Of a stretch of 64,000 nt of DNA, positions 1 through 55,685 are shown one piece after another. The notes beneath the pieces were generated by a model. The model was given only the letters and a program-made list of their open reading frames with translations. It did no database searches and had not been told where the DNA came from. The translations under genes and the position numbers were made by a program. The stretch is from a bacterium (lineage in GTDB: Bacteria; Patescibacteriota; Patescibacteriia; UBA2196): contig DAOOOW010000002.1 in the NCBI GenBank assembly GCA_035387885.1, positions 7,869 to 71,868 on the forward strand. The letters are read 5' to 3'. Each line of letters starts with the position of its first letter. The first letter of the stretch is position 1.

Positions 1-2
1 AG

Positions 3-489: not shown

Positions 490-598
490 AATTTTGTTGT
501 CATCCCAGACCATATCGGGGATCCAGGATTTTAATTTGCTTAATTTAAGTTTTTGTTATAAAATTAAACCAATATAAATAATAAAAAAAGTTGTTTTT

Positions 599-1045: not shown

Positions 1046-2376
1046 GTAAAAATATGAAAACAGATATTAATAAGGTGTCTGTCACATCAGACAAAATGGA
1101 AAAAATAATTTCTCTGTGCAAGAGGCGCGGTTTTGTTTTTCCAGGTTCAGAAATTTATGGCGGTCTGCAAGGATTTTATGATTATGGTCCTTTGGGGGTA
1201 GAGATGAAAAATAATTTAAAAAAACTTTGGTGGCAATGGATGACGCGCCAACATGAAAATATTGTTGGCCTTGATGGCGCCATAATTACTAACCCCAAAG
1301 TTTGGGAAGCTTCTGGCCATCTAAAAAGTTTTGTTGACCCACTGGTTGAATGCAAGAAATGTCATCATCGTTTTAAAGCTGATGATTTGGCTGAAGAAAT
1401 GAAAAAATGTCCAGATTGTGCTGGAGAATTAACCGCGCCACGGATGTATAACACTTTAGTGCCAACCGAACTGGGAGTGATTGAGAGTGAAAAGACCAAA
1501 GCCTATCTCAGGGGTGAAGCCTGCCAAACAATTTATTTGAATTATAAAAATGTTTTAAATTCTACACGTGGCTTAAAAATTCCTTTTGGTATTTGTCAAA
1601 TTGGCAAAGCTTTTCGCAATGAAGTTACTCCGGGTAATTTTCTTTTTCGCCAAAGAGAATTTGAACAATGGGATTTGCAATGGTTTTGTCATCCGGATGA
1701 AATGGCCAAGTGGTTTGCATATTGGAAAAACGAAAGAATGAATTGGTATCAAGCAATTTTTACGCATCCAGAAAATCTTGGTTTTTATGAACATGAAAAA
1801 TTAGCTCATTATGCTAAAAAAGCTTTTGATATAGAATATCTGGCTTCACCAATTGGCAAAGAAATGGAGGGCCTTCATTGGCGCGGGGATTGGGATTTAT
1901 CTAATCACGCTAAATTTTCTGGTGAAGATTTGAGTTATTTTGATGCAGAAAAAAATGAAAAATTTGTGCCCCACATTGTAGAAACTTCTGGCGGAGTTGA
2001 TCGCACATTTTTGTTTTTATTGCTTGACGCCTATACAGAAGAAGAGGGCAGAGTGGTTTTAAAATTAAATTACAAAATCGCACCATACAAAGTCGCAGTT
2101 TTTCCGCTTTTAGCCAACAAACCTCAACTTGTTGAAAAAGCCAAAGAGATTTATAACAATTTAAAAAAAGAATTTAATGTCGCCTGGGACGAACGCGGTA
2201 ATATTGGCAAAAGATATTATTCTCAAGATGAAATTGGCACTCCATTTTGCGTCACCATTGATTTTGATTCTCTGGAAGACAAAAAAGTGACCATACGCGA
2301 TAGAGACACCATGAAGCAAGAACGTGTTGCTGTAGAAGATTTACACAATTACTTAACAAAAGTATTGTCATCCTAA
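1042..2376 (+). CDS. glyQS: Glycine--tRNA ligase, dimeric (alpha2) class II type
   Basis: The N-terminus RGFVFPGSEIYGGLQGFYDYGPLGVE and the class II motifs are typical of dimeric GlyRS. It contains a Cys/His insertion, CKKCHHRF...CPDC. Confidence 0.85.
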   Translation: MSKNMKTDINKVSVTSDKMEKIISLCKRRGFVFPGSEIYGGLQGFYDYGPLGVEMKNNLKKLWWQWMTRQHENIVGLDGAIITNPKVWEASGHLKSFVDPLVECKKCHHRFKADDLAEEMKKCPDCAGELTAPRMYNTLVPTELGVIESEKTKAYLRGEACQTIYLNYKNVLNSTRGLKIPFGICQIGKAFRNEVTPGNFLFRQREFEQWDLQWFCHPDEMAKWFAYWKNERMNWYQAIFTHPENLGFYEHEKLAHYAKKAFDIEYLASPIGKEMEGLHWRGDWDLSNHAKFSGEDLSYFDAEKNEKFVPHIVETSGGVDRTFLFLLLDAYTEEEGRVVLKLNYKIAPYKVAVFPLLANKPQLVEKAKEIYNNLKKEFNVAWDERGNIGKRYYSQDEIGTPFCVTIDFDSLEDKKVTIRDRDTMKQERVAVEDLHNYLTKVLSS

Positions 2377-2400
2377 ATTTGATTTAGGATCCAGAAAATT

Positions 2401-2897: not shown

Positions 2898-2902
2898 ATT
2901 TT

Positions 2903-4168: not shown

Positions 4169-4178
4169 CAAATACAAT

Positions 4179-5318: not shown

Positions 5319-5319
5319 T

Positions 5320-6129
5320 ATGTTATATATAGTCGCTACACCAATTGGCAATTTGGAAGACATAACATTGCGTGCGCTTAGAATTTTTAAGAGTGTTGAT
5401 TATATTTTATGTGAAGATACGCGCGTCACCAAAAAACTTTTAGATCATTATGAAATTTATCCTATCAAATCTTTGGTCAAAGACCAAAGTGCCAAGCAAT
5501 TTGACAGGCTAAATAAAAAATTAATTAGTTATCATCAGCATAGTAGTGACAAAAAGATTCAGGAAATTCTTGAATTAATAAAAAATAATAATGTAGCATT
5601 AGTCACTGATGCTGGTACACCAGGTATTTCTGATCCGGGAAATAAATTGATTGCGCGTTTGGTAGAGACGAGGCATTGCCTCGTTTCTTCTAATACCAAC
5701 ATTGTACCTGTCCCTGGCCCCTCGGCTTTAATTACCGCACTTTCTATTTCTGGTTTGCCAACTGATAAATTTATTTTTAAAGGTTTTGTGCCTCATAAAA
5801 AAGGCCGTGAAACTTTTTTGCGTCAGGTTTTAGATTCAGAAGAGACTGTGGTTTTTTATGAATCCTGTCATCGAATTTTAAAAACACTTTCCGCGCTATG
5901 TTATCCGTCTTTTTGTCATTCCCGCGAAAGCGGGAATCCAGAAAAAGATAACTGGATCCCCGATCAAGTCAGGGATGACAAAAAAGAAAAACACCTTGTT
6001 GTCTGTCGTGAACTAACTAAAAAATTTGAAACTATTTATCGTGGCACTGCTAATGAAATTTTAGAACAAATAAAAAAGGACTTCCCGACGGGAAATCCTA
6101 AAGGCGAATTTGTCGTGATTAGTGGTTAA
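5320..6129 (+). CDS. rsmI: 16S rRNA (cytidine1402-2'-O)-methyltransferase RsmI, carrying a 66-bp in-frame palindromic repeat insertion
   Basis: N-terminus LYIVATPIGNLEDITLRALRIFKSVDYILCEDTR. The insertion at 5915-5980 (TGTCATTCCCGCGAAAGCGGGAATCC...GGATCCCCGATCAAGTCAGGGATGACA) encodes CHSRESGNPEKDNWIPDQVRDD. Confidence 0.8.
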   Translation: MLYIVATPIGNLEDITLRALRIFKSVDYILCEDTRVTKKLLDHYEIYPIKSLVKDQSAKQFDRLNKKLISYHQHSSDKKIQEILELIKNNNVALVTDAGTPGISDPGNKLIARLVETRHCLVSSNTNIVPVPGPSALITALSISGLPTDKFIFKGFVPHKKGRETFLRQVLDSEETVVFYESCHRILKTLSALCYPSFCHSRESGNPEKDNWIPDQVRDDKKEKHLVVCRELTKKFETIYRGTANEILEQIKKDFPTGNPKGEFVVISG

Positions 6130-6134
6130 AATTG

Positions 6135-6335: not shown

Positions 6336-6377
6336 AGTTCCTCCTGTTGTTGGATTACGAAATTTTAAAACCTTTTT

Positions 6378-7820
6378 ATGTCTAATAAATTTTATCTTAC
6401 CACAACTCTGCCTTATGTCAATGCTGAACCACACATTGGTTTTGCTTTGGAAATTATTCAAGCCGATGTTCTAGCGCGCTGGCACAGATTTTTAGGTCAG
6501 GAAGTTTTTTTTAATACTGGCACAGATGAACATGGTTTGAAAATTTATCGTAAAGCTTTGGCAGAAAATAAAACTCCCCAAGATTATTGCAATGAATACG
6601 CCACCAAATTTGATAATTTAAAAAGTGCTTTAAATTTAAGTTATAATAATTTTATCCGCACTACTGATGAACACCACACCAAGGCGGCCCAGGAGTTTTG
6701 GCAACGTTGCGAGAAAAATGGTGATATCTACAAAAAAAATTATAGCGTAAAATATTGTGTGGGTTGTGAACTAGAAAAAACCGAATCAGAACTGGTTAAT
6801 AACAAATGTCCAATTCATCCAAATTTAGACTTGGAATTAATTGCTGAAGAAAATTATTTTTTTAGTTTTTCCAAATATCAAGATAAACTTTTAGAATTAT
6901 ATAAAAATAACCCAGAGTTTGTTGTGCCTACCCATCGCTTGCATGAAATAAAAAATTTTGTGGAGGGCGGTTTAGAAGATTTTAGTATTTCTCGATTGAA
7001 AGAAAAAATGCCATGGGGCATTTCTGTGCCAGGCGATGAAAACCATGTGATGTATGTTTGGTTTGACGCTTTGGTTAATTATATTTCCTGTCTGGGTTGG
7101 CCAGATGATGAAAAAAAGTTTAAAGAATTTTGGCCAGGAACGCAAGTGGCAGGCAAAGATAATTTACGTCAACAAACTGCCATGTGGCAAGCCATGTTAA
7201 TGTCTGCTGGTTTACCAAATTCCAAACAAATTTTTATTCATGGTTTTATCACTGCTGGTGGAGAAAAAATGAGTAAATCACTTGGCAATGTGGTTAACCC
7301 TTTTGAGTTAGTTGAAAAATATGGCACTGATGCTATACGTTATTATCTTTTAGCAAAACTTCCACCATATGAAGATGGTGATTATACTGAAGAAAAATTT
7401 AAAGAAGCCTATACTGCTGACCTTTGCAACGGCCTTGGCAACCTTGTCTCGCGATTTTCTAATCTAATCGAAAAGAATAATCTTACTTTGCCATCCCGAC
7501 GAAAGTCGGGATCCAGCAATATTGATGGTAATCAATTGTCAAAAACATTTTCCGACAAATTATCTCACTATAAATTCAATGAAGCCCTAGAAGTTCTCTG
7601 GGCCAAACTTCGTGCTTGTGATGAAACAATTACCAAAACAGAACCTTGGAAAATTAAAGATCAAGAAAAACTCAAAGAAATTTTAGAGCCTATTGCAGAG
7701 GATATTTTAAATGTGGCCATTTTGCTCCAACCCTTTATGCCTAGTACGGCTGAAAAAATAATCAAGACTTTTACAGCAGAAAAAATTGTCAAAAGCGAAC
7801 CATTATTTCCAAGAATATAA
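6378..7820 (+). CDS. metG: Methionine--tRNA ligase (short form)
   Basis: LPYVNAEPHIGF (HIGH-type motif) and KMSKSLGN. A 23-bp hairpin repeat (ATCCCGACGAAAGTCGGGAT) lies in-frame at 7492-7514. Confidence 0.9.
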   Translation: MSNKFYLTTTLPYVNAEPHIGFALEIIQADVLARWHRFLGQEVFFNTGTDEHGLKIYRKALAENKTPQDYCNEYATKFDNLKSALNLSYNNFIRTTDEHHTKAAQEFWQRCEKNGDIYKKNYSVKYCVGCELEKTESELVNNKCPIHPNLDLELIAEENYFFSFSKYQDKLLELYKNNPEFVVPTHRLHEIKNFVEGGLEDFSISRLKEKMPWGISVPGDENHVMYVWFDALVNYISCLGWPDDEKKFKEFWPGTQVAGKDNLRQQTAMWQAMLMSAGLPNSKQIFIHGFITAGGEKMSKSLGNVVNPFELVEKYGTDAIRYYLLAKLPPYEDGDYTEEKFKEAYTADLCNGLGNLVSRFSNLIEKNNLTLPSRRKSGSSNIDGNQLSKTFSDKLSHYKFNEALEVLWAKLRACDETITKTEPWKIKDQEKLKEILEPIAEDILNVAILLQPFMPSTAEKIIKTFTAEKIVKSEPLFPRI

Positions 7821-7822
7821 TA

Positions 7823-7895: not shown

Positions 7896-7912
7896 AATTA
7901 GCATAAAAACTT

Positions 7913-8428: not shown

Positions 8429-8444
8429 TTCGTTTACCCACCTG

Positions 8445-8485
8445 CGCTCCATGGCGACCAATTATCGCTCCGGCGGATAAACTCC
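8445..8485 (+). repeat. Palindromic repeat copy (CGCTCCGGCGGATAAACTC family); inverted partner lies inside tatD at 9067..9098
   Basis: 8445-8477 is the reverse complement of 9067-9098 with 31 of 33 positions matching. The 3' part CGCTCCGGCGGATAAACTC recurs in gyrB at 50574-50592. Confidence 0.7.
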
Positions 8486-8605: not shown

Positions 8606-9439
8606 ATGCCACTAATCGATTCTCACTGCCATCTAAATTCTAAGGAATTTGAGAATAACTATAAAGAAATAATTGCCGATTGTCTTGAAAAAGAAATCGG
8701 TCTTCTTAACATTGGCGCGGATTTTGAAACCTCCAAACGCGCTGTAGAAATTGCTAGCGAGTATCCCAATAAACCAATTTACGCTTCTATTGGTATGCAC
8801 CCAGAAAGCATTCAGGAAAATTTTGATGCTGAAAAATTTCAAAAATTAATTAACCCCAAAACCGTGGCTGTTGGTGAAATCGGTTTAGAATATTTTTTTG
8901 ATAATAAGCAGGAATTAAAGGAAAAACAACAAGAATTATTTAGACAACAATTAAATTTTGCCATAAAAAATAATTTACCAGTAATTTTACACGCCCGTGG
9001 TTCAAAATTAAATCCCTACGATGTATATGAGGACATGTTAGATATTTTAAAAAAACAGGAACCTGCCCGCCGGAGCGATAATTGGTCGCGATGGAGCGAA
9101 GGCGGGGAGAAGGGTGTCGTCCACTGTTTTAGCGCTAGCCAGGAAATCGCTCAAAAATTTCTTGATCTGGGTTTTTATATTGGCCTAACTGGTTTAATTA
9201 CCTTTAAAAACAAATCAGTTGACAGTTTGCGCCAAACTGTTAAAATGATTCCTTTGGAGCGTCTTTTAGTGGAAACCGACACGCCATATATGACCCCAGA
9301 ACCACACAGGGGTGAGAAAAATTTGCCCCAATACACTGAATTTGTGGCCAGGAAACTAGCCGCAATAAAAGGTGTGAGTTATACAGAAATTTGTAAAATC
9401 ACCACAGAAAATTTTAAAAAATTGTTTTTAAAAAAATAA
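8606..9439 (+). CDS. tatD: TatD-family metal-dependent hydrolase/DNase, with an in-frame repeat insertion
   Basis: PLIDSHCHL start, internal HCFSG-type motif (VVHCFSAS). The inserted peptide PARRSDNWSRWSEGGEK is encoded by the palindromic element at 9062-9106. The upstream part of track ORF 8561.. is a repeat, not coding. Confidence 0.8.
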   Translation: MPLIDSHCHLNSKEFENNYKEIIADCLEKEIGLLNIGADFETSKRAVEIASEYPNKPIYASIGMHPESIQENFDAEKFQKLINPKTVAVGEIGLEYFFDNKQELKEKQQELFRQQLNFAIKNNLPVILHARGSKLNPYDVYEDMLDILKKQEPARRSDNWSRWSEGGEKGVVHCFSASQEIAQKFLDLGFYIGLTGLITFKNKSVDSLRQTVKMIPLERLLVETDTPYMTPEPHRGEKNLPQYTEFVARKLAAIKGVSYTEICKITTENFKKLFLKK

Positions 9440-9443
9440 TTTG

Positions 9444-9471
9444 TTCGCTCCAGTCTCCTGACTGGAGCGGC
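9444..9471 (+). repeat. CGCTCCAGTC-TCCT-GACTGGAGCG hairpin element downstream of tatD
   Basis: Perfect 10-bp stem with no T-run, so it is a repeat rather than a classic terminator. Variants occur at 15927-15951, 25327-25421 and in the 70-bp repeat. Confidence 0.5.
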
Positions 9472-9475
9472 AATG

Positions 9476-9546
9476 CTTCCTTAATGTAAAAGATTTTAAT
9501 TACATTATTGAACATAAAGCCTCCAGTCAGGAGACATGGAGGCAAC
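9476..9546 (+). repeat. 70-bp repeat copy 1; its SD-containing hairpin sits immediately upstream of rbfA
   Basis: Near-identical to 29993..30064. Contains the GCCTCCAGTC-AGGA-GACaTGGAGGC hairpin. Confidence 0.7.
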
Positions 9547-14554: not shown

Positions 14555-14675
14555 TACTAAAGTTTATCCCGAGTGTCTATTTTGGTCGCTTTGAACCGAA
14601 CTTGCCTACCGGTAGGCGGGGGATCTCATTTTTAAAATTAGAGATCTCTCACTAATCGCTCGAGATAAACTTGGA
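14555..14675 (+). repeat. Intergenic palindromic repeat element (GTTTATCCCGAG ... CTCGAGATAAAC termini)
   Basis: Terminal inverted repeats with one mismatch, with internal CCTACCGGTAGG and GAGATCTCTC sub-palindromes. Same family as 42655.., 45394.., 51700.., 54355... Confidence 0.65.
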
Positions 14676-15845: not shown

Positions 15846-15959
15846 TTCTTTAATTGTAAACTCAAGCGACTATTTTAGTTGTTAAGAGTTTGGGGATCCT
15901 TTTTTTAATTTTCTAATCATTTTTTCGCTCCAGTCTTTTGATTGGAGCGTTGGTGTATT

Positions 15960-16958
15960 ATGCCAAAATATAAAATTGGAACTAAATACATTGCCAATCG
16001 TTTAGACAAATTTCTTTTTGAAAAAATAAAAAAATTTTCTCGTTCTCAAATTCAAAAGCAAATAAAAGATGGATTAATTTTAGTGAACAATAAAATTATT
16101 CAGCCACATTATTTTTTAAAAGAAAAAGATGTTATAGAAATAAAGAAATCAGAAATTAAGAAATTGGGGGATAGTGGTTCTCTCCAGTCTCCAAACCGGA
16201 GCGACAACGTATTAAACCACCAATCAGGAGACCAGAGGGAACAGCCAATAGAAATAATTTTTGAAACCCCAGATTATTTAGTCATTAATAAACCAGAAGG
16301 TTTATTGGTGCATCCAGGCAATGTTCACTCCGACAAAACTTTGATTGATTGGTTAATTAAAAAATATCCGAGTATTAAAAAAGTTTTTGATAAAGATAAT
16401 AAGATTGGTAAAACCAGACCGGGCATTGTTCATCGACTAGATCGTGATGTTTCTGGTTTAATGGTCATTGCTAAAACTCAGCCCATGTTTGATTATTTAA
16501 AAAATCAGTTTAAAGATAGAGTCATCAAAAAAGAGTATTTAGCTTTGGTTCATGGCGAAGTTTCTTTAGATGTTGGTAGAATCGAGCGTGCACTCATTCG
16601 TTCTAAAAAAACTGGTTTAATAGCTGCGCAAACAGAAGAAAATTCGCTTGGTAAAGAAGCCATTACTGAATTTTCGGTTATACAAAGATATAAAAAATAT
16701 ACACTTTTGCAGATTAAACTTTTAACCGGTCGCACTCATCAAATTCGCGTGCATCTTAAAAGTATTGGTCATAGTATTTTAGGCGATAAACTCTATATAA
16801 CTCGCAATATTCGTCTTAAAGCCAAAAAACCAACAGTAAACAATATTTTTTTATTATCTAAAAAATTGGGTTTTTATGATTTGGAAAATAATTGGCAAGA
16901 ATTCAAAATTAAAGAACCAAAATGGTGGCTTGAATATTTAAAGATTTTAAAATCTTGA
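15960..16958 (+). CDS. RluA-family pseudouridine synthase (RluD-like, S4 domain plus catalytic domain) with an in-frame repeat insertion in the inter-domain linker
   Basis: HRLDRDVSGLMVIAKT catalytic motif. A roughly 60-bp element at 16190-16250 (CTCCAGTCTCC...GGAGACCAGAG) encodes SLQSPNRSDNVLNHQSGDQRE. Confidence 0.75.
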   Translation: MPKYKIGTKYIANRLDKFLFEKIKKFSRSQIQKQIKDGLILVNNKIIQPHYFLKEKDVIEIKKSEIKKLGDSGSLQSPNRSDNVLNHQSGDQREQPIEIIFETPDYLVINKPEGLLVHPGNVHSDKTLIDWLIKKYPSIKKVFDKDNKIGKTRPGIVHRLDRDVSGLMVIAKTQPMFDYLKNQFKDRVIKKEYLALVHGEVSLDVGRIERALIRSKKTGLIAAQTEENSLGKEAITEFSVIQRYKKYTLLQIKLLTGRTHQIRVHLKSIGHSILGDKLYITRNIRLKAKKPTVNNIFLLSKKLGFYDLENNWQEFKIKEPKWWLEYLKILKS

Positions 16959-17454: not shown

Positions 17455-17572
17455 TTAATTTGATTTATTGTTATTTTTTGCTATAATAAAAGCGATTCCT
17501 TCGCTTTTATTTGTTTATAATAATATCCCGTAGGGACAGGTTTCAAACCTGTCCCTACAAAATAAAATTTCC

Positions 17573-22213: not shown

Positions 22214-23398
22214 ATGTCTGCTAAAGAAAAAACCCTCTTAGTCACTCTTGATTTTCCCCCTCTGTTTGGTGGCGTGGCTAATTATTATTTTGAACGAGTT
22301 AAGATATTGTCTAAAGAGGAGATATTTGTTTTAATGAATCAAATTACGGATTACAAATTACAGATTACAAATTACGATTTTAAAATTTATTATAAATCCT
22401 TTTTTACCAAATTGCTTTGGCCTCATTGGCTTCCCCTAATTTGGCATATTTATAGAATTGTTAAAAAAGAAAAAATAAATAAAATTTGGGTGGGGCAAGT
22501 TTTACCAGTAGGCACGGCGGTTTGGGGGATATCTCGTCTTTTGTCATTCCAGCGATCCGCCAGCTGGCGGATGAAATCCAGTAATTTTTTTAGTCGAAGA
22601 GATCCTTCGACTTCAGCCTCGCATTGCTCGGCTTCCGTTCAGGATGACAAAATACGTCCTTTGGCGTATTTTGTCACTTGTCATGGCAATGATTTGCTGC
22701 GCGCTAAAAATCAGCCACGAAAATTTAAAATTGCTAAACTTATTTTTCGTGACGCTGAATTTGTTGAAGCTAATACTGAATTTACTAAAAATATTTTAAT
22801 TAATGATTTCCAAATTCCAGCAGAAAAAATTAAAATTGTTTATCCGGTTAATACTTTAAAAAAGGAAATGGTTGACGAAAAAAAAGTTAGTGAGTTGCGT
22901 GAAAAGTATAATCTAATTGGCAAAAAAGTTTTATTAACTGTTGGCCGATTAGTGAAATCCAAAGGCATTGATCAAGTTATTTGTGCCTTGCCAAAAGTTT
23001 TGGAAAAAATACCAGATTTAGTATATTTAATTGTTGGTGATGGACCTGATAAAGAAAGATTAACACAGATTGTTGGCGAATTTGCAGGGACAGGTTACGA
23101 CCTGTCCCTGCCAACCCAAAATAATAAAATAATTTTTATTGGCAGTGTGCTAAACGAAGAATTACCAAATTATTATGCTCTGGCCAATGCTTTTATTTTA
23201 ACTCCGCGAAAGAATTATTTTGGAGATACAGAAAGTTTTGGGATAGTTTATTTAGAAGCCAAAGAATTTGATTTGCCTATTGTTGCTGGCAATGTTGGTG
23301 GAGCTAAAGAAATTGCCAAAGCTTACAATCAAATGCATTTGATTGATTCTGAAAATATAGAAGAAGTGGTAGAAAAAATAATTGCCATAATAAAATAA
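22214..23398 (+). CDS. Glycosyltransferase family 4 (GT-B, retaining) with three in-frame repeat insertions
   Basis: C-terminal GT4 blocks (VGRLVKSKGID..., ESFGIVYLEAKEFDLPIVAGNVGG). Insertions: ATTACAAAT repeat 22352-22380 (ITDYKLQITNY), 108-bp palindromic element 22542-22649, and hairpin TGCAGGGACAGGTTACGACCTGTCCCTGCC at 23084-23112. Confidence 0.7.
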   Translation: MSAKEKTLLVTLDFPPLFGGVANYYFERVKILSKEEIFVLMNQITDYKLQITNYDFKIYYKSFFTKLLWPHWLPLIWHIYRIVKKEKINKIWVGQVLPVGTAVWGISRLLSFQRSASWRMKSSNFFSRRDPSTSASHCSASVQDDKIRPLAYFVTCHGNDLLRAKNQPRKFKIAKLIFRDAEFVEANTEFTKNILINDFQIPAEKIKIVYPVNTLKKEMVDEKKVSELREKYNLIGKKVLLTVGRLVKSKGIDQVICALPKVLEKIPDLVYLIVGDGPDKERLTQIVGEFAGTGYDLSLPTQNNKIIFIGSVLNEELPNYYALANAFILTPRKNYFGDTESFGIVYLEAKEFDLPIVAGNVGGAKEIAKAYNQMHLIDSENIEEVVEKIIAIIK

Positions 23399-23844: not shown

Positions 23845-24585
23845 ATGTTGCTCTCAATTATAATTCCAACCTACAACAATCAAAAAAATCTGTCAAGATG
23901 TCTTTTGAGTTTAAAAGAACAAACCGTTTTTGAATTATATAAAAAAGAAGTAGAAGTAATAATAATTAACGATGGTGGTGAATCTTTTGAAATGCACGGG
24001 GTTCTTCCTCTCTCGCATCCGCGGGATCGTCATAATGACATCCTTTATAAAATATTTACCATAAAACATTCTGGTGCGTCAGCGGCTAGAAATTTTGGTT
24101 TTACAAAATTAACCGGCCAATATGTTTTTTTCTGTGATAGTGATGTAATTTTTTTAAAAAATAATGCTCTAGAAAAAATGATAAAAATTTTAGAGCAAAA
24201 TCTAAACAAAGCTTACTGTTACTCATCGTTTAAATTTGGTTGGAAAATATTTAAATTATTTTCTTTTGATCAAGAAAAATTAAAACAAAATAATTATATT
24301 TCCACCATGTCAATAATCCGCCGGAGTGCTTTGGAAAAATTATCATTTCCTAACATTCCTTTTGATGAATCTTTAAAAAAATTTCAAGATTGGGATTTGT
24401 GGTTGGCGCTTTTAAAACTAGGGGAGACTGGAATTTTTTTAGACGAAATTTTGTGGCAAGCCAAGTCAGGGGGCACTATGAGCAAGTGGATTCCTAAAAT
24501 TTTTTATAAAATATTTAAAAATAGTCATAAAGTTCAAGCTTATCAAAAAGCCAAAGAAATTATTATAAAAAAGTACAATTTGTAG
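23845..24585 (+). CDS. Glycosyltransferase family 2
   Basis: IIIPTYNNQKNLSRCLLSL ... NDGG ... DSD(V) motifs of GT-A/GT2. Confidence 0.75.
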   Translation: MLLSIIIPTYNNQKNLSRCLLSLKEQTVFELYKKEVEVIIINDGGESFEMHGVLPLSHPRDRHNDILYKIFTIKHSGASAARNFGFTKLTGQYVFFCDSDVIFLKNNALEKMIKILEQNLNKAYCYSSFKFGWKIFKLFSFDQEKLKQNNYISTMSIIRRSALEKLSFPNIPFDESLKKFQDWDLWLALLKLGETGIFLDEILWQAKSGGTMSKWIPKIFYKIFKNSHKVQAYQKAKEIIIKKYNL

Positions 24586-24811: not shown

Positions 24812-25972
24812 ATGAAAATCCTCTATGCAGGTGGTGGCACCATGGGCTCGGTTAGTCCCTTAATTGCTATCCATCAGAAATTAGTGTCAAAGTATCCAGT
24901 GCCAGAGTATCAATGTTTTTGGTTAGGAACACATAATGGACCTGAAAAAGAAGTGGTTGAAAAGGTTGGTATAAAATTTGAAGTTATTGAAAGCGGCAAA
25001 TTCCGCCGTTATTTTGATTTAAAAAATTTGTTAGATTTTTTTAGAATTATTATTGGTTTTTTTCAAGCTCTTTATTGGTGTTTTAAATTTAAACCAGATA
25101 TAATTTTAACTGCTGGTTCATTTATCTCGGTACCAGTAGCCTATGCGGCTTTTTTCTATGGCGCTTCAGTTTTTGTGCATCAACAAGATATTGAAGTTGG
25201 CTTGGCCAATAAATTAATGGCCCCCGTTGCGAAAAAAATAACTGTAGCTCTAGAAAAATCCCTGCAAGATTTTGATTCCAAAAAAGTTGTTTTGGTCGGC
25301 AATCCTGTGCGTTTAAGTTGTTCTGTTCGCTCCAGTCTCCCTGCCTCGTCGGTAGGCGGGCCGACTGGAATGGAATTGTACATTAATGAGCACAAAGTCT
25401 CCAGCCAGGAGACTGGAGCGAACAATAGTATTAACGATTTTAAGTTTCAAAATAATTTACCAACTGTTTTAATTCTTGGCGGTGGCACAGGTGCCATGAC
25501 TATTAATGAATTAGTTTGGCAGTCGTTGCCAGAATTAATAAAATTTTGCAATATTATTCATATTACCGGTAAAGAAAAAAATTTGAATAATGAATCTGGA
25601 ATTATAAATTATGAAAAAAAATATAAAAATTTTGAATTTTTAGATGAACAAAAAATTTATTCAGCTATGCAGGTAGCCGAAGTGGTGGTTACGCGCGCTG
25701 GTATGTCAGCCTTAACTGAGTTGGCCTATTTTAAAAAACCAACCGTCATTATTCCCATTGCTGATTCGCATCAAGAAAAAAATGCTAAATATTTTGCTAA
25801 CCATGAAGCTGCTATTAATTTATCTCAAAAAAATTTAACTAAGGAAAATTTTGTCGCTCAGATAAAAAATTTATTAAATGATAAAAATAGACAACAAGAA
25901 ATGGGGGAGAATATGCAGCAGATTTTTATTGATTATTCCGGCGAAAAATATTTAGAGGAAATTTTAAAATAA
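24812..25972 (+). CDS. MurG-family glycosyltransferase (GT28) with a 100-bp repeat inserted in-frame at the inter-domain linker
   Basis: N-terminal KILYAGGGTMGSVSPLIAI and C-terminal TRAGMSALTELAYFKKPTVIIP blocks. The inserted peptide is VRSSLPASSVGGPTGMELYINEHKVSSQETGAN. Confidence 0.65.
   Translation: MKILYAGGGTMGSVSPLIAIHQKLVSKYPVPEYQCFWLGTHNGPEKEVVEKVGIKFEVIESGKFRRYFDLKNLLDFFRIIIGFFQALYWCFKFKPDIILTAGSFISVPVAYAAFFYGASVFVHQQDIEVGLANKLMAPVAKKITVALEKSLQDFDSKKVVLVGNPVRLSCSVRSSLPASSVGGPTGMELYINEHKVSSQETGANNSINDFKFQNNLPTVLILGGGTGAMTINELVWQSLPELIKFCNIIHITGKEKNLNNESGIINYEKKYKNFEFLDEQKIYSAMQVAEVVVTRAGMSALTELAYFKKPTVIIPIADSHQEKNAKYFANHEAAINLSQKNLTKENFVAQIKNLLNDKNRQQEMGENMQQIFIDYSGEKYLEEILK
25325..25424 (+). 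repeat. Palindromic element with 15-bp terminal inverted repeats (GTTCGCTCCAGTCTCC ... GGAGACTGGAGCGAAC) inside the MurG-like CDS
   Basis: Perfect terminal inverted repeats flank a roughly 70-bp body containing CTGCCTCGTCGGTAGGCGGG. Confidence 0.7.
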
Positions 25973-29941: not shown

Positions 29942-29992
29942 ATCACAACTATGTCATCCCCGGGCGTAGTTTCGTGCCCCCGGGACGTCAAT

Positions 29993-30064
29993 GTTCCTTA
30001 AAGTAAAAAAATTTTAATCACATTATTGAACAAATAGCCTCCAGTCAGGAGACATGGAGGCAAC
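29993..30064 (+). repeat. 70-bp repeat copy 2 (not followed by a + strand gene)
   Basis: Matches 9476..9546, with the same GCCTCCAGTCAGGAGACATGGAGGC hairpin. Preceded by a TGTCATCCCCGGGCG...CCCCCGGGACG palindrome. Confidence 0.7.
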
Positions 30065-33639: not shown

Positions 33640-33790
33640 ATATTTTATCCCCTCCTTTTAAAGGAGGGGCTTAAGCCGAAGGCTAAGGGGGTGGTTATAG
33701 TATTAAGACAAAATTAATTTTTAATACCATGACCGCCCCCTCCGGCTAATCGCCGAGAGACCCCGCCTTTAAAAGGTGGGGATAGGGGAA
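33640..33790 (+). repeat. Composite palindromic repeat cluster (CCCCTCCTTTTAAAGGAGGGG and CCCCGCCTTTAAAAGGTGGGG units)
   Basis: Two related perfect palindromes plus a GC-rich linker. Related CCCCTCCTT(G/T)AAAAGGAGGGG copies at 40975-40998 and 56718-56740 (the latter inside a CDS). Confidence 0.6.
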
Positions 33791-36800: not shown

Positions 36801-36831
36801 TTTTTTGTTTTTATTTTATTTTTATAAACAC

Positions 36832-36892
36832 GGGATCCCTCGACTTAGGCCTCGCTTTGTTCGGCCTTCGCTCGGGATGATAACTTTCAAAG
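36832..36892 (+). repeat. Intergenic palindromic repeat (GGGATCCCTCGACT...CGCTCGGGATGATAAACT)
   Basis: Same family as 56470-56516, 45394-45450 and 14555-14675. Confidence 0.6.
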
Positions 36893-38722: not shown

Positions 38723-38810
38723 CTGTCATGGCATGAGGGTTGAAATCTGCCCCAAGGCAGATTTCAACGGTTCAAGTCCCTGCCTACCGGCAGGCAGACC
38801 GTCCGCTCCG
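38723..38810 (+). pseudogene. Variant tRNA-Asp-like 3' portion (anticodon loop to 3' acceptor end) duplicating 58 nt of 38501..38558 and carrying an 18-nt palindrome in the T-loop
   Basis: CTGTCATGG...GGTTCAAGTCCC is identical to the upstream pseudo-copy. It then continues with TGCCTACCGGCAGGCAGA and CCGTCCGCTCCG (the correct Asp 3' end). Confidence 0.55.
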
Positions 38811-40794: not shown

Positions 40795-41008
40795 AAAAAC
40801 AGGGTTTAAATTAAACCCAATAAAACGCAAAAATTCGCTGAAATGGGCGGATTTTTGCTTTTAGATAATGTTTGCGGTTTTTATAGATATTTGGTAAAAT
40901 AAAAGGGTAAAAAGTAAAAGTTTAACTCAGCGCCTATTGGCGATTTATTAACCACCCCGCCCGACTTCGTCGAGGCGCCCCTCCTTGAAAAGGAGGGGAC
41001 AGCAAGTC

Positions 41009-41454: not shown

Positions 41455-41580
41455 TATGTCCCGCAACCGTGGGAGCGGATTGGGAATTCTAGTAGTTGAA
41501 GAAAAAAGCGCGGGTTTAAATCCATGGGATCCCCGCTTTAAGAGCCTAATCGGCATGGCCGGCGGGGATGACAGATAGCA
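41455..41580 (+). repeat. Palindromic repeat element upstream of pheS (TGTCATTTCAGACC ... GGGATCCCCGCTTTAAGAGCCTAATCGGCATGGCCGGCGGGGATGACAG)
   Basis: The 3' module is about 90 percent identical to 55631-55678, the copy upstream of 56071. Confidence 0.65.
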
Positions 41581-42654: not shown

Positions 42655-42795
42655 TCAAAGTTTATCCCGAGCGATTAGTTGAGGGATCTCTATTTAGTAA
42701 TCTGTAATAAGTAATATGTAATAAGTAATAAAAACACTTTGTCATCCCGGCTCAAATTGCCACTGGTAATTTTTCGCTGATTCGGGATCCAGAAA
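42655..42795 (+). repeat. Composite intergenic repeat (GTTTATCCCGAGCG...GAGGGATCTC; AT-rich GTAATNNGTAATA tandem; TGTCATCCCGG...TTCGGGATCC)
   Basis: Three of the recurring repeat families are juxtaposed in 140 bp. Confidence 0.6.
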
Positions 42796-44380: not shown

Positions 44381-44444
44381 TTTCTATTTGTCATCCTGAA
44401 TTTGTTTGCCCCGCATTTGCAGCGGATTCAGGATCCAAAAAATT

Positions 44445-45211: not shown

Positions 45212-46123
45212 ATGTTTAAACTTTTTTACAAAATCAAATATTTTTTCGGCACAATATATCGTGGGTTGATTGGCAGATCCCATAATGCTTTTGACCAGGC
45301 GCCAGAAATAAATAAAGATGTAGAAAATTTTGTAATTGGGAAAAGTGAGGAGGGAAGAGAAATAAGAGTTTATAAAATTGGAAGCCAATCCATGAGATCT
45401 CTCGACTCCTCCGACAGTGCTTTGCCTGCCGGAGTCGCTCGAGATAAACTTAAAAAAATATTATTTGTTGCTGGTATTCATGGCAATGAAGTTGGCACAG
45501 TCAAGTTAGCTGGAAATATTATTAATTATTTTTTTAATGTAACTCCGAGCTTTAGCTCGGATGAATCCGATCTAAAGGCCGGAGTTACAAAAGACCACAC
45601 TCTTTATGTTATTCCTTGTTTAAACCCCGATGGTTATGAGCGTGCCTTAAAAAATCCTGATTATGCGCATCGTGGCCGAGTGGGACGTAATAACAGTCGT
45701 GGTGTAGATTTAAATAGAAATTTTCTAACTCAAAATTTTCAAAAAAATTCCGAGTGGGGTTTTGGCAGAAATTATGGCGATGAAAAAATTGCCGCTTATT
45801 GTGGAGAATTTGGTGGTTCAGAAAGAGAAACGCAAGCTTTAATAAAATTTATTAAACAAGAAAATATTCAAAATTTAATTATGCTTCACAACGCTGGCAA
45901 AGATGTGGTTTATAATTCCGGCGATCAAGTAGCCAAAAAATGGGCAGAAATTTATAACAAATTTACCAAATTTAAAATCAGAACAGATCTAAATTATTCC
46001 GGTGGCGTTGCTGAATGGGCTAAAGAAAATAATATTCATTATTTAACTGTAGAAGGTTCAAGCAGGTGGGGAAGTGATTGGCGAAAACAAAAAAGCGCGG
46101 TTGAAAAAATTATTAATTCATAA
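45212..46123 (+). CDS. M14-family zinc carboxypeptidase (MpaA/gamma-D-Glu-Dap peptidase-like) with an in-frame repeat insertion
   Basis: GIHGNEVGT (HxxE) and GVDLNRNF motifs. The 57-bp element at 45394-45450 encodes RSLDSSDSALPAGVARDKL. Confidence 0.65.
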   Translation: MFKLFYKIKYFFGTIYRGLIGRSHNAFDQAPEINKDVENFVIGKSEEGREIRVYKIGSQSMRSLDSSDSALPAGVARDKLKKILFVAGIHGNEVGTVKLAGNIINYFFNVTPSFSSDESDLKAGVTKDHTLYVIPCLNPDGYERALKNPDYAHRGRVGRNNSRGVDLNRNFLTQNFQKNSEWGFGRNYGDEKIAAYCGEFGGSERETQALIKFIKQENIQNLIMLHNAGKDVVYNSGDQVAKKWAEIYNKFTKFKIRTDLNYSGGVAEWAKENNIHYLTVEGSSRWGSDWRKQKSAVEKIINS

Positions 46124-48720: not shown

Positions 48721-50904
<2,184 letters not shown>

Positions 50905-55537: not shown

Positions 55538-55685
55538 TACTGTCATTCCCGACCGCCTTCCCGATAGCAATCGGGAGGCGGATCGGGAATCCCGTTGATT
55601 ACAGAAAAAAGTTTGTGTTTATATTCACGAGATCCCCGCTCTGAGAGCCTAATCGGCAGTGCCGGCGGGGATGACAACTAGGGGG
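55538..55685 (+). repeat. Composite palindromic repeat (TGTCATTCCCGACCGCCTTCCCGATAGCAATCGGGAGGCGGATCGGGAATCCC, then GAGATCCCCGCTCTGAGAGCCTAATCGGCAGTGCCGGCGGGGATGACAA)
   Basis: The second module is near-identical to 41530-41578. Confidence 0.65.

What the first reader, a model, noticed from the sequence alone, without database searches (positions are those of the whole stretch)
5915..5980. Family of short GC-rich palindromic repeats inserted in-frame within at least a dozen conserved housekeeping and envelope genes (Rickettsia-RPE-like behaviour)
In a strongly AT-rich background, a heterogeneous family of 20-110 bp GC-rich palindromes recurs. The shared cores are TGTCATCC(C)...GG(G)ATGACA, (A)GTTTATCCCGAG...CTCGAGATAAAC(T), GAGATC(C/T)CTCGACTCC..., CGCTCCAGTC-N4-GACTGGAGCG, CGCTCCGGCGGATAAACTC and CTGCCT(C/A)G..CAGGCAG. 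Besides about 15 intergenic copies, copies lie inside long uninterrupted reading frames of conserved genes. Where the gene family is recognisable, the extra peptide falls between conserved blocks:
- rsmI 5915-5980.
- metG 7492-7514.
- tatD 9062-9106.
- rluD-like 16190-16250, in the S4/catalytic linker.
- GT4 22542-22649 and 23084-23112.
- MurG-like 25325-25424, in the inter-domain linker.
- M14 peptidase 45394-45450.
- pheT 47076-47128.
- gyrB 50541-50592.
- GT2 54756-54852.
- O-antigen-ligase-like, several copies.
The frames stay open, so these are tolerated peptide insertions, not disruptions. Proliferation of palindromic repeats within coding sequence has been described mainly for Rickettsia RPEs. 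Seeing it at this density in an unrelated AT-rich lineage is unusual, and it may affect protein surfaces.
Basis: partly seen in the sequence, partly recalled or inferred. Interest (0 to 1): 0.75.

Follow-up and report, generated by a model that had tools for sequence, protein, structure and literature searches.

The report
REP-type palindromes inside CPR genes
An AT-rich genome of an uncultured ultra-small (CPR, Kuenenbacteria-like) bacterium is peppered with short GC-rich hairpin repeats of the known REP/RPE kind, and about one gene in five in this window, including gyrB, pheT, metG, murG and rsmI, carries one or more of them in frame as an extra, probably floppy, protein loop.

Summary
Strong hairpins are 4-40 times more frequent than in shuffled sequence, and TGTCATYCC occurs 14 times against 0.5 expected. 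All the listed in-gene copies keep the reading frame. Alignments to solved structures and to relatives 50-92% identical show most as extra residues absent from some or all relatives (rluD: from E. coli RluD only). At several sites a relative carries a different element, and the gyrB site is ambiguous. A sister strain has an extra 45-nt hairpin insert in tatD that the window lacks.

It is not one family but at least six. The main one (TGTC | 8-bp stem starting AT | 4-5-nt loop | CCA tail, often as inverted dimers) meets the published definition of CGTC-1 REPs. That family includes Neisseria dRS3 and Rickettsia RPE-6. One unit matches Neisseria copies at 29 of 30 bases. Others are GTAG-tagged or TIR-type palindromes.

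AlphaFold models of RsmI and MurG give very low confidence exactly over the inserted residues.

Best reading: selfish REP/REPIN-like repeats, kept in genes only where they preserve the frame and sit in loops or linkers. The mobilising enzyme was not found.

This is a new host lineage and an unusually high intragenic density for a known kind of element.

The parts
2363..2393 (+). AT-decayed CGTC-type unit (TGTC ATCCTAAAT TTG ATTTAGGAT CCA) that supplies the last codons and the stop codon of the glycyl-tRNA synthetase gene
   Evidence: also present in sister strain L088
5458..5508 (+). AT-decayed palindromic insert in rsmI (aa 47-63, YPIKSLVKDQSAKQFDR)
   Evidence: Absent from most relatives, present in a scattered few. 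Unique against L081 and L084, folds at -17.6 kcal/mol. pLDDT below 50.
5659..5699 (+). GTAG-tagged hairpin in rsmI (GTAGAGACGAGGC ATT GCCTCGTTTCTTC, peptide VETRHCLVS)
   Evidence: DNA fold z = -6.1. The site is variable and holds other hairpin peptides in relatives.
5914..5980 (+). Inverted dimer of CGTC-1 units in rsmI (TGTC ATTCCCGC GAAA GCGGGAAT CCAG - 10 nt - CTGG ATCCCCGA TCAAG TCAGGGAT GACA), peptide CHSRESGNPEKDNWIPDQVRDD
   Evidence: About 23 extra residues against E. coli RsmI. Absent from or different in relatives. z = -5.7. pLDDT below 50.
7489..7516 (+). Single CGTC-1 unit in metG (TGCC ATCCCGAC GAAA GTCGGGAT CCA), in the linker between the catalytic and anticodon-binding domains
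   Evidence: The site is empty in L084 and holds a longer, different element in L081.
9059..9108 (+). Repeat copy in tatD (CCTGCCCGCCGGAGCGATAATTGGTCGCGATGGAGCGAAGGCGGG)
   Evidence: 92.5% reverse-complement match to intergenic 8437-8476. The same sequence is intergenic in sister strain L092. About 12 extra residues against solved TatD structures. Site empty in L084. Weak hairpin, z = -0.6.
16176..16247 (+). Degenerate TIR-type element (GTTCTCTCCAGTCTCC ... GGAGACCAGAGGGAAC) in the S4-to-catalytic linker of rluD
   Evidence: The linker is about 16 residues longer than in E. coli RluD. z = -1.75.
22541..22650 (+). Composite CGTC-type element in a GT4 glycosyltransferase gene (TGTCATTCC ... GGATGACA with nested hairpins)
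   Evidence: z = -3.8. L090 carries a different TGTCAT-type element at the same site.
23084..23111 (+). Perfect 12-bp hairpin GCAGGGACAGGT TACG ACCTGTCCCTGC in the same GT4 gene
   Evidence: z = -9.0. Absent from L090.
23993..24040 (+). Degenerate element remnant in the GT2 gene at 23845-24585
   Evidence: L090 has a full TGTCAT-type element (CHPHESEDP...) at the same site. Weak fold.
25325..25424 (+). 100-nt TIR-type element (GTTCGCTCCAGTCTCC ... GGAGACTGGAGCGAAC) with a nested CCTGCCT..AGGCGGG hairpin, in the inter-domain linker of murG
   Evidence: Absent from 24 relatives. z = -5.8. pLDDT below 50 for aa 172-205 only. Related copy between genes in another genome, L098.
45394..45450 (+). 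Element in the M14 peptidase gene (GATCTCTCGACTCC ... GGAGTCGCTCGAGATAAAC)
   Evidence: Absent from four relatives including the sister strain.
45538..45589 (+). Second element in the M14 gene (TGTAACTCCG ... CGGAGTTACA)
   Evidence: z = -7.9. Absent from four relatives.
47076..47128 (+). Insert in pheT: GC palindrome CCCTGCCTCGCCGGCAGGCAGG nested in an older AT-rich insert
   Evidence: Absent from 7 GTDB relatives. Present only in the window and L092; a shorter older insert is in L093 and L095; none in L094.
47624..47651 (+). GTAG-tagged hairpin GTAGAGACGCAAGATATTGCGTCTC in a variable loop of pheT
   Evidence: z = -7.6. Variable region.
50540..50592 (+). TIR-type element (TTTATCCGCC ... GGCGGATAAA) in the Toprim-to-C-terminal linker of gyrB
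   Evidence: Right arm matches 8459-8484. z = -3.6. Lacking in sister strain L092, but the linker is hypervariable everywhere.
54756..54852 (+). Decayed CGTC-type dimer with a nested CTGCCTCATTGGCAG hairpin in the GT2 gene at 54507-55499
   Evidence: L093 has the intact form (CHPRESGDP...NQVGDDK). L095 has a GTAGGGAC-type hairpin at the same site. The Pfam GT2 match breaks at this point.
56410..56511 (+). CGTC-type element in the O-antigen-ligase-like (Wzy_C) gene, old: present in all four relatives
   Evidence: z = -4.1
56686..56750 (+). CCCCTCCTTTAAAAGGAGGGG-type element in the Wzy gene
   Evidence: Copies at 33648, 40977 and 56726. Absent from L095. z = -4.0.
56998..57038 (+). Half unit TGTCATCCCGAGCGGAGCGAAGCGGAGTCGAGGGATC in the Wzy gene
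   Evidence: 100% reverse complement of 56475-56512. L093 has a different element here and L095 has none. Not a hairpin by itself.
498..525 (+). Intergenic CGTC-1 unit, at the exact point where similarity to the sister strain breaks off
8431..8484 (+). Intergenic TIR-type element GTTTACCCACC ... GGCGGATAAAC, 3 nt after a stop codon
8514..8552 (+). Intergenic CCTGCCT..AGGCAG hairpin
9441..9546 (+). REPIN-like inverted dimer directly after the tatD stop codon; the whole folds at -52 kcal/mol (RNA parameters)
   Evidence: The same composite lies between other genes in L098.
14601..14672 (+). Intergenic hairpins (TGCCTACCGGTAGGCG; GGGGGATCTC..GAGATCTCTC; CGCTCGAGATAAAC)
15924..15950 (+). Hairpin CGCTCCAGTCTTTTGATTGGAGCG just upstream of, or at the start of, rluD
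17530..17558 (+). Intergenic GTAG hairpin GTAGGGACAGGTTTCAAACCTGTCCCTAC
29952..30064 (+). Second copy of the dimer after a stop codon. The spacer and second hairpin match 9441-9546, but the first hairpin is swapped for a TGTCAT-type one.
33646..33784 (+). Two intergenic CCCC(T/G)CCTTT..AAAGG(A/T)GGGG elements
36830..36882 (+). Intergenic CGTC-type unit (GGGATCCCTCGAC ... CTCGGGATGATA)
38779..38800 (+). CCTGCCTACCGGCAGGCAG hairpin sitting in the T-arm of a truncated tRNA-Asp copy
40948..41002 (+). Intergenic CCCCTCCTTGAAAAGGAGGGG-type element
41500..41573 (+). Intergenic CGTC-type element, 84% identical over 74 nt to 55603-55676
42660..42792 (+). Intergenic GTTTATCCCGAG..GAGGGATCTC unit plus a TGTCATCCCGG...CGGGATCCAG unit, after the pheS stop codon
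43227..43253 (-). Intergenic CGTC-1 unit (TGTC ATCCTGAC GAAA GTCATGAT CCA)
44389..44434 (+). TGTCATCCTGAATTTG...CGGATTCAGGATCC hairpin between genes
55541..55593 (+). Intergenic CGTC-type unit with an enlarged stem (TGTC ATTCCCGACCGCCTTCCCGAT..ATCGGGAGGCGGATCGGGAAT CCC), the strongest hairpin in the window
55603..55676 (+). Intergenic CGTC-type element, the partner of 41500-41573

Best explanation
What it is. These are several families of small, non-coding, hairpin-forming selfish repeats of the REP/REPIN (RPE-like) kind. They have spread in the AT-rich genome of a Kuenenbacteria-like CPR bacterium.

Families. The main family is the CGTC-tagged REP type (tag TGTC/CGTC, 8-bp stem starting AT, 4-5-nt loop, CCA tail). 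It occurs as single units and as inverted dimers. With it are GTAG-tagged hairpins and several palindromes with longer terminal inverted repeats.

Shown.
- The repeats are real.
- They occur between genes, often just after stop codons, and inside genes.
- In-gene copies keep the frame and add residues that relatives lack.
- Copy load differs sharply between close relatives, and one insert is polymorphic between sister strains.
- Elements nest in each other and decay towards A+T.

Inferred.
- Copies land more or less anywhere. Selection removes all in-gene copies except those that add a multiple of three bases without a stop codon in a loop or linker. This is easy because about half of the other frames are also open.
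- The surviving copies are translated as hydrophilic, disordered surface loops that are neutral or nearly so.
- They move as single-stranded DNA hairpins cut and pasted by a trans-acting HUH tyrosine transposase of the RAYT type. This has been argued for the near-identical Neisseria unit. This last step is the least secure (about 0.3), because no such gene was seen.
For: Excess of hairpins and motifs over shuffles.

Same sequences in different contexts:
- tatD copy = intergenic 8437-8476, and is intergenic in L092.
- murG arm = intergenic 9441-9467; gyrB arm = 8459-8484.
- The composite dimer lies between unrelated genes in another genome.

Inserts absent from relatives or solved homologues.

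Strain polymorphism: sister strain L088 has a 45-nt insert with GTAGAGACGCAAAATCTTGCGTCTCTAC in tatD that the window lacks.

Lineage-specific load of strong hairpins per 10 kb: window 5.3, L081 10.6, L090 8.4, against L084 1.45, L089 1.44 and L005/L006 0.

Selection against in-gene copies, by my curated count: about 20 copies in 55.6 kb of coding sequence against about 19-24 in 8.4 kb of intergenic sequence, a 7-8-fold lower density in genes.

Independent assemblies carry the same inserts: the JGI contig is 100% identical over 16,129 nt, and NCBI and Logan contigs also hold them.

Family assignment:
- Five units meet every feature of CGTC-1 REPs, including a CCA tail that was not required by the search (definition in PMC3733652).
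- 29/30 identity to N. gonorrhoeae copies and 28/28 to a Sphingopyxis copy. The Sphingopyxis copy is itself an in-gene dimer in ileS.
- The Neisseria REPIN seed ATTCCCGCGCAGGCGGGAATC is linked to a Group 2 RAYT (bioRxiv 10.1101/2021.07.10.451892).

Loops:
- The MurG model has pLDDT below 50 only at aa 172-205, exactly the insert.
- The RsmI insert residues 201-218 are below 50 and coil.
- Inserts fall in Pfam inter-domain gaps in MetG, RluD, MurG and GyrB.
- Peptides in the used frame are hydrophilic, mean Kyte-Doolittle -1.0.
Against: - No transposase of any kind is in the window.
- No RayT homologue was found among 8,321 ORFs of the 1.64 Mb of related loci held. Only 20-60 kb per genome was available, so this is weak evidence.
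- Di Nocera et al. state that CGTC REPs have no known dedicated transposase.
- No target-site duplication or clean empty site could be defined. The one strain polymorphism lies in a recombined, divergent tract.
- Translation of the inserts is inferred from frame conservation only.
- At several sites (rsmI, GT2, GT4, metG, tatD) different lineages carry different elements at the same position. Simple random insertion does not predict this.
- The hydrophilic-frame preference is not significant: 10 of 18.
Confidence: 0.75

Rival explanations
1. Some or all families are classical MITEs: deletion derivatives of insertion sequences with terminal inverted repeats, moved by a DDE transposase and making target-site duplications. 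They would not be REP/REPIN elements moved as single-stranded hairpins.
For: Several families have long terminal inverted repeats around a non-palindromic middle: GTTCGCTCCAGTCTCC...GGAGACTGGAGCGAAC (murG, 100 nt), GTTTATCCGCC...GGCGGATAAAC, and TGTAACTCCG...CGGAGTTACA. No RAYT was found.
Against: No parental insertion sequence and no DDE transposase were seen in the window or the loci held. No target-site duplication is visible at the filled sites compared with relatives. The main family fits the REP definition unit by unit, not a MITE.
Confidence: 0.15
2. The hairpins are kept because they do something for the cell as RNA or DNA structures. Candidate roles are 3' mRNA stabilisers or terminators between genes, or translation pause sites at domain boundaries inside genes. 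They would not be mere passengers.
For: Many intergenic copies start within about 15 nt of a stop codon and face the same way as the upstream gene: 8431, 9441, 29952, 42660, 44389, 55541, and the L098 copy. This is the known habit of REPs (PMC3733652). Several in-gene copies sit at domain linkers.
Against: In-gene copies are missing from close relatives with the same genes, so they are dispensable. Old copies decay towards A+T and lose their pairing, for example 54756-54852, 2363-2393 and 5458-5508. Load ranges from 0 to 10 per 10 kb among relatives. Linker positions are equally expected from tolerance alone.
Confidence: 0.12
3. The extra peptides are old, vertically inherited, fast-evolving loops of these proteins, and the DNA similarity among them is incidental.
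For: A few copies are old and shared by all relatives examined: Wzy 56410-56511, and the ...QDD remnant near the pheT 3' end. The gyrB site is a linker that varies in all CPR relatives.
Against: The same 25-74-nt sequences recur in unrelated genes and between genes. Most inserts are absent from relatives 60-92% identical. One is polymorphic between sister strains. Motif counts far exceed chance.
Confidence: 0.03
4. The inserts are removed before or during translation, by RNA processing, ribosome hopping as in phage T4 gene 60 or yeast mitochondrial byps, or intein-like protein splicing. The mature proteins would then lack them.
For: Nothing direct. Strong hairpins inside coding sequence are the kind of signal used in translational bypassing (my knowledge of T4 gene 60).
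Against: All of the roughly 20 in-gene copies (18 checked frame by frame) add a multiple of three bases and have no stop codon in the used frame. Bypassing or splicing would not require this. Nothing here suggests take-off and landing codons or intein motifs, although take-off/landing codon pairs were not specifically searched for. Rfam finds only tRNAs.
Confidence: 0.02
5. Assembly or binning artefact: chimeric joins at repeats create apparent inserts.
For: Repeats can confuse short-read assemblers, and the source is a metagenome.
Against: The window is 100% identical over 16,129 nt to an independent JGI contig. The same insert-bearing proteins occur on 3-5 contigs from NCBI, JGI, ENA and Logan assemblies. 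The frames stay open and downstream homology resumes in register.
Confidence: 0.01

Closest known systems
CGTC-tagged REPs, family CGTC-1 (Di Nocera et al. 2013, PMC3733652), which includes Neisseria dRS3 (ATTCCC-N8-GGGAAT) and R. conorii RPE-6
   Same: Unit anatomy is identical: tag CGTC (often TGTC), 8-bp stem starting AT, 4-nt loop, CCA tail, frequent inverted dimers. Sequence matches N. gonorrhoeae copies at 29/30 and a Sphingopyxis copy at 28/28. The window unit ATTCCCGCGAAAGCGGGAAT fits the dRS3 pattern. Some members of the family are intragenic.
   Different: The host is a CPR/Patescibacteria bacterium, a phylum not among the five reported for CGTC repeats. Many window copies have enlarged or nested interiors. 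The intragenic share is much higher: 13 of 69 genes in this window.
Rickettsia palindromic elements (RPE-1 to RPE-10; Ogata et al. 2000 and 2002, as summarised in PMC10969869)
   Same: Palindromic repeats inserted in frame in unrelated housekeeping genes of a small AT-rich genome. They are tolerated as extra surface peptides, and lineage load is uneven.
   Different: RPE-1 is about 150 bp and restricted to Rickettsia. The window elements are 28-110 nt and belong to other sequence families, apart from the CGTC-1 link to RPE-6. Sequence similarity to RPE-1 was not tested.
REPIN-RAYT systems (Bertels and Rainey 2011, PMC3116915; bioRxiv 10.1101/2021.07.10.451892)
   Same: [quoted passage not shown] Singlets appear as decayed remnants. 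The Neisseria REPIN seed differs from the window unit only in three loop bases.
   Different: REPINs are described as extragenic and tied to a single-copy RAYT gene. Here many copies are inside genes, and no RAYT was found in the sequence available.
GTAG-tagged REPs (E. coli REP/BIME and 24 families in PMC3733652)
   Same: Short GC-rich hairpins beginning GTAG at 5662, 17530 and 47624, plus the L088 tatD insert.
   Different: In the window copies GTAG is mostly paired with a 3' CTAC rather than left unpaired. No plasmid-database relatives were found. No RAYT was seen.
Bacterial MITEs found inside genes (Coxiella QMITE1, intragenic ERIC, Anabaena MITEs; PMC10969869)
   Same: Small non-autonomous repeats that can make in-frame fusions with host ORFs.
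   Different: No target-site duplications or parental insertion sequences were seen here, and units are shorter.

Membership tests
CGTC-1 REP (dRS3 / RPE-6 type) | Unpaired terminal tag CGTC, often changed to TGTC or CCTC | tested here: met
   Five canonical units carry TGTC or TGCC. There are 14 exact TGTCATYCC against 0.5 expected. Definition from PMC3733652.
CGTC-1 REP (dRS3 / RPE-6 type) | 8-bp stem with complementary A-T residues in the first and second positions | tested here: met
   ATTCCCGC/GCGGGAAT, ATCCCGAC/GTCGGGAT and similar, with 0-1 mismatch.
CGTC-1 REP (dRS3 / RPE-6 type) | Loop of 4 nt (family 1) or 5 nt | tested here: met
   GAAA in three units, CCATA and CTTGA in one each.
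CGTC-1 REP (dRS3 / RPE-6 type) | Short unpaired tail fitting CCA | tested here: met
   All 5 units end in CCA, although the search did not require it.
CGTC-1 REP (dRS3 / RPE-6 type) | Sequence similarity to accepted members | tested here: met
   29/30 to N. gonorrhoeae copies (at least 40 places in the record), 28/28 to Sphingopyxis, and hits in Azospirillum and Legionella. Fits ATTCCC(N8)GGGAAT.
CGTC-1 REP (dRS3 / RPE-6 type) | Many interspersed copies per genome, commonly as inverted dimers | tested here: inconclusive
   Only 64 kb of this genome was seen. It holds about 15 TGTCAT-type copies including dimers at 5914-5980, 22541-22650, 54756-54852 and 56410-56511. The genome-wide count is not available.
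REPIN-RAYT system | Two REP units in inverted orientation that fold into one hairpin | tested here: met
   5914-5980; 9441-9546 folds at -52 kcal/mol; 29952-30064.
REPIN-RAYT system | A cognate single-copy RAYT (HUH/Y1 transposase) gene flanked by the REP | tested here: inconclusive
   None in the window by Pfam. phmmer with E. coli RayT found nothing in 8,321 ORFs from 1.64 Mb of loci.
REPIN-RAYT system | Extragenic location | tested here: not met
   About 20 copies lie inside 13 conserved genes.
Rickettsia palindromic elements (RPE) | In-frame insertion of a palindromic repeat in conserved genes, with the extra peptide absent from orthologues | tested here: met
Rickettsia palindromic elements (RPE) | Sequence membership in RPE-1 to RPE-10 consensus families | not tested
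   No RPE consensus sequences were available in the tools. The only link is through the literature statement that RPE-6 equals CGTC-1.
MITE | Terminal inverted repeats of 15-30 bp | tested here: met
   The murG element has 16-nt ends; the gyrB and M14 elements have about 10-nt ends.
MITE | Target-site duplication flanking the element | tested here: inconclusive
   None visible at M14, tatD or rsmI when compared with relatives, but the flanks have diverged or recombined.
MITE | Related autonomous insertion sequence with the same ends | tested here: inconclusive
   None in the window or the loci held. Whole genomes were not searched.

The most novel reading that the evidence does not exclude
The CGTC-1/dRS3 unit, identical at 29 of 30 bases in Neisseria and in a CPR bacterium, may belong to one pan-bacterial REPIN system. 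That system would either move between phyla or be held constant by a still unidentified, widely shared enzyme.

In CPR genomes, which have almost no intergenic space, such elements may have become a main source of length variation in essential proteins. They would work through fixed 'landing pads' inside genes, where elements of different families replace one another. Examples are a TGTCAT-type element against a GTAGGGAC-type hairpin at the same codon of rsmI and of a GT2 gene, and different elements at the same sites of metG, tatD and GT4.

That would point to hairpin-targeted insertion or cassette exchange rather than random insertion followed by selection.
Probability: 0.2. Interest if true: 0.7.

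Novelty: new member of a known kind. Interest (0 to 1): 0.5.

Why it matters
Host range. This extends REP/RPE-type coding palindromes to the Candidate Phyla Radiation. I found no report of them there in the searchable open literature. A 2024 review still treats Rickettsia as the outstanding case.

Density. In this window 13 of 69 genes carry them, and RsmI owes about 48 of its 269 residues to three elements. This suggests that in these tiny, gene-dense genomes selfish hairpins are a routine source of protein length variation.

Practical consequences:
- They can mislead gene callers, domain searches (the GT2 Pfam match is split at the insert) and orthologue alignments used for CPR phylogeny.
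- They mark recombination breakpoints between strains.

Open question. The near-identity of the unit to Neisseria dRS3 makes the question of what mobilises CGTC-type REPs testable in a new and very small genome.

Tried and rejected
- The built-in inverted-repeat finder was swamped by AT-rich matches. A perfect-stem scan found only 12 hairpins. A GC-rich 10-mer repeat count was too noisy, 470 against about 150. I replaced these with an energy scan plus shuffles.
- The GTDB scan with GyrB gave only relatives of 64% identity or less. They were useful for PheT but too distant for empty-site analysis. Closer relatives came from protein searches and exact-protein look-ups.
- I first read a TatD length difference (277 against 292 aa) as an insertion polymorphism. 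It was only a different start-codon call, and the JGI contig is identical to the window. The real polymorphism is a different 45-nt insert in L088.
- An 8-mer motif count across loci was not specific in GC-rich genomes. I replaced it with hairpin density in AT-rich loci.
- The search for a RAYT failed: Pfam on 30 window ORFs and phmmer with E. coli RayT on all loci. The single metagenome scan, with the 25-mer GCCTCCAGTCAGGAGACATGGAGGC, returned only two contigs. That was enough to show the element in other genomic contexts but not to find a transposase.
- Rfam: only tRNAs.
- Plasmid-database searches for the CGCTCCAGTC-type and GTAGGGACAGGT-type elements found nothing.
- The test for a preferred hydrophilic reading frame was not significant, 10 of 18.
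- I considered comparing G-T with A-C mismatches to separate RNA-level from DNA-level selection. I dropped it because nearly all genes are on the G-rich strand, which confounds it.


Full report
**Source and setting.** The window is 33% G+C. About 87% is coding, with 69 non-overlapping ORFs, nearly all on the + strand. Bases 1-16129 are 100% identical to JGI metagenome contig Ga0116242_10001173 from sample 3300010355. A sister strain (NCBI MAG GCA_964498445.1, loci L088 and L092) is a mosaic: blocks from 99.9% down to below 85% identity. The nearest named relatives of RsmI and GyrB are Candidatus Kuenenbacteria, which are CPR/Patescibacteria.

- In 50-nt windows, folds of -18 kcal/mol or better form 43 regions, against 1-10 in Markov or local-composition shuffles. 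At -20 or better the count is 31 against 0-3. About ten of these are tRNAs or tRNA fragments, and a few look like ordinary terminators.
- TGTCATYCC occurs 14 times against 0.5 expected.
- Self-BLAST links in-gene copies to intergenic ones. The tatD copy at 9067-9106 is the reverse complement of 8437-8476. The murG arm at 25399-25425 is the reverse complement of 9441-9467. The gyrB arm at 50567-50592 matches 8459-8484. Region 41500-41573 matches 55603-55676. Region 56997-57034 is the exact reverse complement of 56475-56512.
The rluD element is better placed at 16176-16247.
- With DNA parameters, 12 of 18 in-gene copies fold better than all 200 shuffles. The tatD copy, the decayed GT2 copy and one half unit do not.

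**Are they insertions in otherwise conserved proteins?** Pfam confirms the host genes.

Against solved structures:
- RsmI has about 23 extra residues between E. coli positions 170 and 179.
- TatD has about 12 extra residues.
- MurG has about 32 extra residues in the inter-domain linker.
- The RluD S4-to-catalytic linker is about 16 residues longer.

Against relatives:
- The MurG insert is absent from 24 homologues up to 71% identical.
- The PheT insert is absent from seven GTDB relatives. It is present only in the window and its sister strain.
- Two M14 inserts are absent from four syntenic relatives, including the sister strain.
- The GT4 hairpin at 23084 is absent from L090.
- MetG and TatD are empty at these sites in L084.
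- The gyrB copy is missing in the sister strain, but it lies in a linker that varies everywhere.
- The sister strain has an additional 45-nt insert in tatD, containing GTAGAGACGCAAAATCTTGCGTCTCTAC, that the window and two other relatives lack. It lies in a divergent, probably recombined tract.

In total about 20 copies sit in 13 of 69 genes. About 19-24 lie in the 8.4 kb of intergenic DNA. The density is therefore roughly 7-8 times lower in genes (my count).

**Dynamics.**
- Strong-hairpin density per 10 kb is 5.3 in the window, 10.6 in L081 and 8.4 in L090. It is only 1.4 in L084 and L089, and 0 in two other AT-rich CPR loci.
- Elements nest. A CCTGCCT..AGGC hairpin sits inside the murG element, one inside the GT2 element, and the pheT palindrome sits inside an older AT-rich insert.
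- Old copies decay towards A+T and lose their pairing. Some are shared by all relatives, for example Wzy 56410-56511.
- At several sites different lineages hold different elements. In RsmI the same position carries CHSRESGNP..., CHPELVSGS..., CHPEDPPVGGDEGS..., a GTAGGGACAGGT hairpin (L081), or almost nothing. A GT2 gene shows TGTCAT-type elements in the window and L093 but a GTAGGGAC-type hairpin in L095. MetG, TatD, GT4 and another GT2 behave likewise. Either these loops are the few permissive places and are hit repeatedly, or existing hairpins attract or are replaced by new ones. I cannot tell which.
- The similarity break between the two strains at window 493/494 falls exactly at an element.

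**What are they?** There is not one family but at least six.

The main one has this unit: tag TGTC, an 8-bp stem beginning AT, a 4-5-nt loop, and a CCA tail. Five canonical units occur in the window, against about 0.1 in shuffles. All five end in CCA even though the search did not ask for it. This is the published definition of CGTC-1 REPs. In Di Nocera et al. [quoted passage not shown] The same paper states that CGTC-1 elements correspond to dRS3 repeats in Neisseria and to RPE-6 in R. conorii (PMC3733652).

Sequence matches support this assignment:
- The window unit ATTCCCGCGAAAGCGGGAAT fits the dRS3 pattern ATTCCC(N8)GGGAAT (PMC3898611).
- A plasmid-database search found the unit at 29/30 identity in N. 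gonorrhoeae, with at least 40 places in a record that is in fact a chromosome. It was also found in Azospirillum, Legionella, sphingomonads and others (sequence).
- In Sphingopyxis indica an inverted dimer with the same architecture as the rsmI element lies inside ileS.

The rsmI, GT4, GT2 and Wzy elements are inverted dimers of such units with a spacer. This is the REPIN layout. Bertels and Rainey give ATTCCCGCGCAGGCGGGAATC as the Neisseria REPIN seed and link it to a Group 2 RAYT.

Other families are:
- GTAG-tagged hairpins (5662, 17530, 47624, and the L088 insert).
- Palindromes with longer terminal repeats: GTTCGCTCCAGTCTCC, GTTTATCCGCC and TGTAACTCCG.
- CCTGCCT..AGGCAGG hairpins.
- CCCCTCCTTT..AAAGGAGGGG elements.

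Two intergenic composites, 9441-9546 and 29952-30064, share a spacer and a second hairpin but have different first hairpins. The same composite lies between unrelated genes in another metagenome contig.

**Effect on the proteins.**
- AlphaFold2 models built from the family alignments give a confident MurG (mean pLDDT 85). Its only segment below 50 is residues 172-205, exactly the insert.
- In RsmI the insert residues 201-218 and the AT-rich insert at 49-64 are below 50 and modelled as coil.
- Inserts in MetG, RluD, MurG and GyrB fall between Pfam domains. The GT2 Pfam match is cut at the insert.
- The encoded peptides are hydrophilic, with mean Kyte-Doolittle -1.0. On average 2.6 of the other five frames are also free of stop codons, so the elements fit easily into ORFs.

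**Mechanism.** I did not find the mobilising enzyme.
- No transposase is in the window.
- E. coli RayT finds nothing in 8,321 ORFs from the 1.64 Mb of loci held. That is only a small part of each genome.
- Di Nocera et al. note that CGTC REPs lack a known dedicated transposase.
- I saw no target-site duplications.

My best account therefore has two parts. The first I hold with fair confidence: REP/REPIN-type selfish hairpins are filtered by selection to frame-preserving loop positions and translated there. The second I hold at about 0.3: they move as single-stranded hairpins handled by a RAYT-like enzyme.

**Known or new?** In-frame palindromic repeats are classic for Rickettsia. They have also been listed for GTAG and CGTC REPs in several phyla, including in tRNA synthetase and pseudouridine synthase genes. 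The kind is therefore known, and the main family here is a member of it. New points are the host (CPR, not among the phyla reported), the density inside essential genes, and the site sharing between different element families. I found no paper describing this in CPR. The library searched does not cover subscription journals.

Noticed in passing
window 38464-38813: The real tRNA-Asp (38608-38683) sits between two truncated tRNA-Asp-like copies that share an exact 58-nt duplication (38501-38558 = 38723-38780). The first copy has the 5' part, with a TTGAAATCTGCC CCAA GGCAGATTTCAA hairpin in the variable region. The last copy has the 3' end, with a CTGCCTACCGGCAGGCAG hairpin in the T-arm. This looks like a tRNA gene split by an insertion or duplication and then hit by repeats. 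Rfam scores 38469-38532 as a weak tRNA.
   Followed up: partly
window 20074-20102 and 32036-32073: There are partial duplicates of the 3' end of tRNA-Ala (93% over 29 nt) and of part of tRNA-Ile (95% over 38 nt), each about 75-120 nt from the intact gene. These may be scars of integrated elements (att-like repeats).
   Followed up: no
window 31923-31998 (- strand): ARAGORN calls a tRNA-Ile with anticodon TAT (UAU). This is uncommon in bacteria, which usually read AUA with a lysidine-modified CAU tRNA.
   Followed up: no
window 4173-4287, 7820-7914, 10886-10970, 15479-15571: AT-rich intergenic inverted repeats form a separate repeat class (units such as TTTCTAATTTTGAATTTTAAAA and AATTCGCAAATAATT). 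Related AT-rich stretches are also read in frame, for example ...ISNFQ... near the Wzy 3' end.
   Followed up: no
window 53017-53577 versus L092 14267-14535: Between the L11 and L1 ribosomal protein genes the window has a 159-aa ORF with no Pfam match (53075-53554), preceded by a decayed TGTCATTCC..GGGAATCCAG unit. The sister strain instead has an array of GTTTATCCGCC-type repeats, including the same sequence that sits inside tatD in the window.
   Followed up: partly
window versus L088/L092 (GCA_964498445.1): Identity between the two strains is mosaic: 100% over some kilobases, clusters of mismatches elsewhere (6649-6771, 7931-8374, 8809-8864), and GyrB only 92% identical. This suggests frequent homologous recombination with diverged alleles. 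One breakpoint (493/494) abuts an element.
   Followed up: partly
L092 9679-9995 and L093 9673-9933: Relatives carry about 300 nt with a small minus-strand ORF between pheT and gyrB. The window has only 26 nt there.
   Followed up: no
proteins P0270 and P0312: Some CPR GyrB homologues are 1134-1151 aa long and carry an intein domain (PF14890). This is a different kind of in-frame insertion in the same gene family.
   Followed up: no
L101 (Sphingopyxis indica plasmid pMC4, ileS): A CGTC-1 inverted dimer lies inside an isoleucyl-tRNA synthetase gene on a conjugative plasmid. It shows the same unit carried in a gene on a mobile replicon in Alphaproteobacteria.
   Followed up: partly
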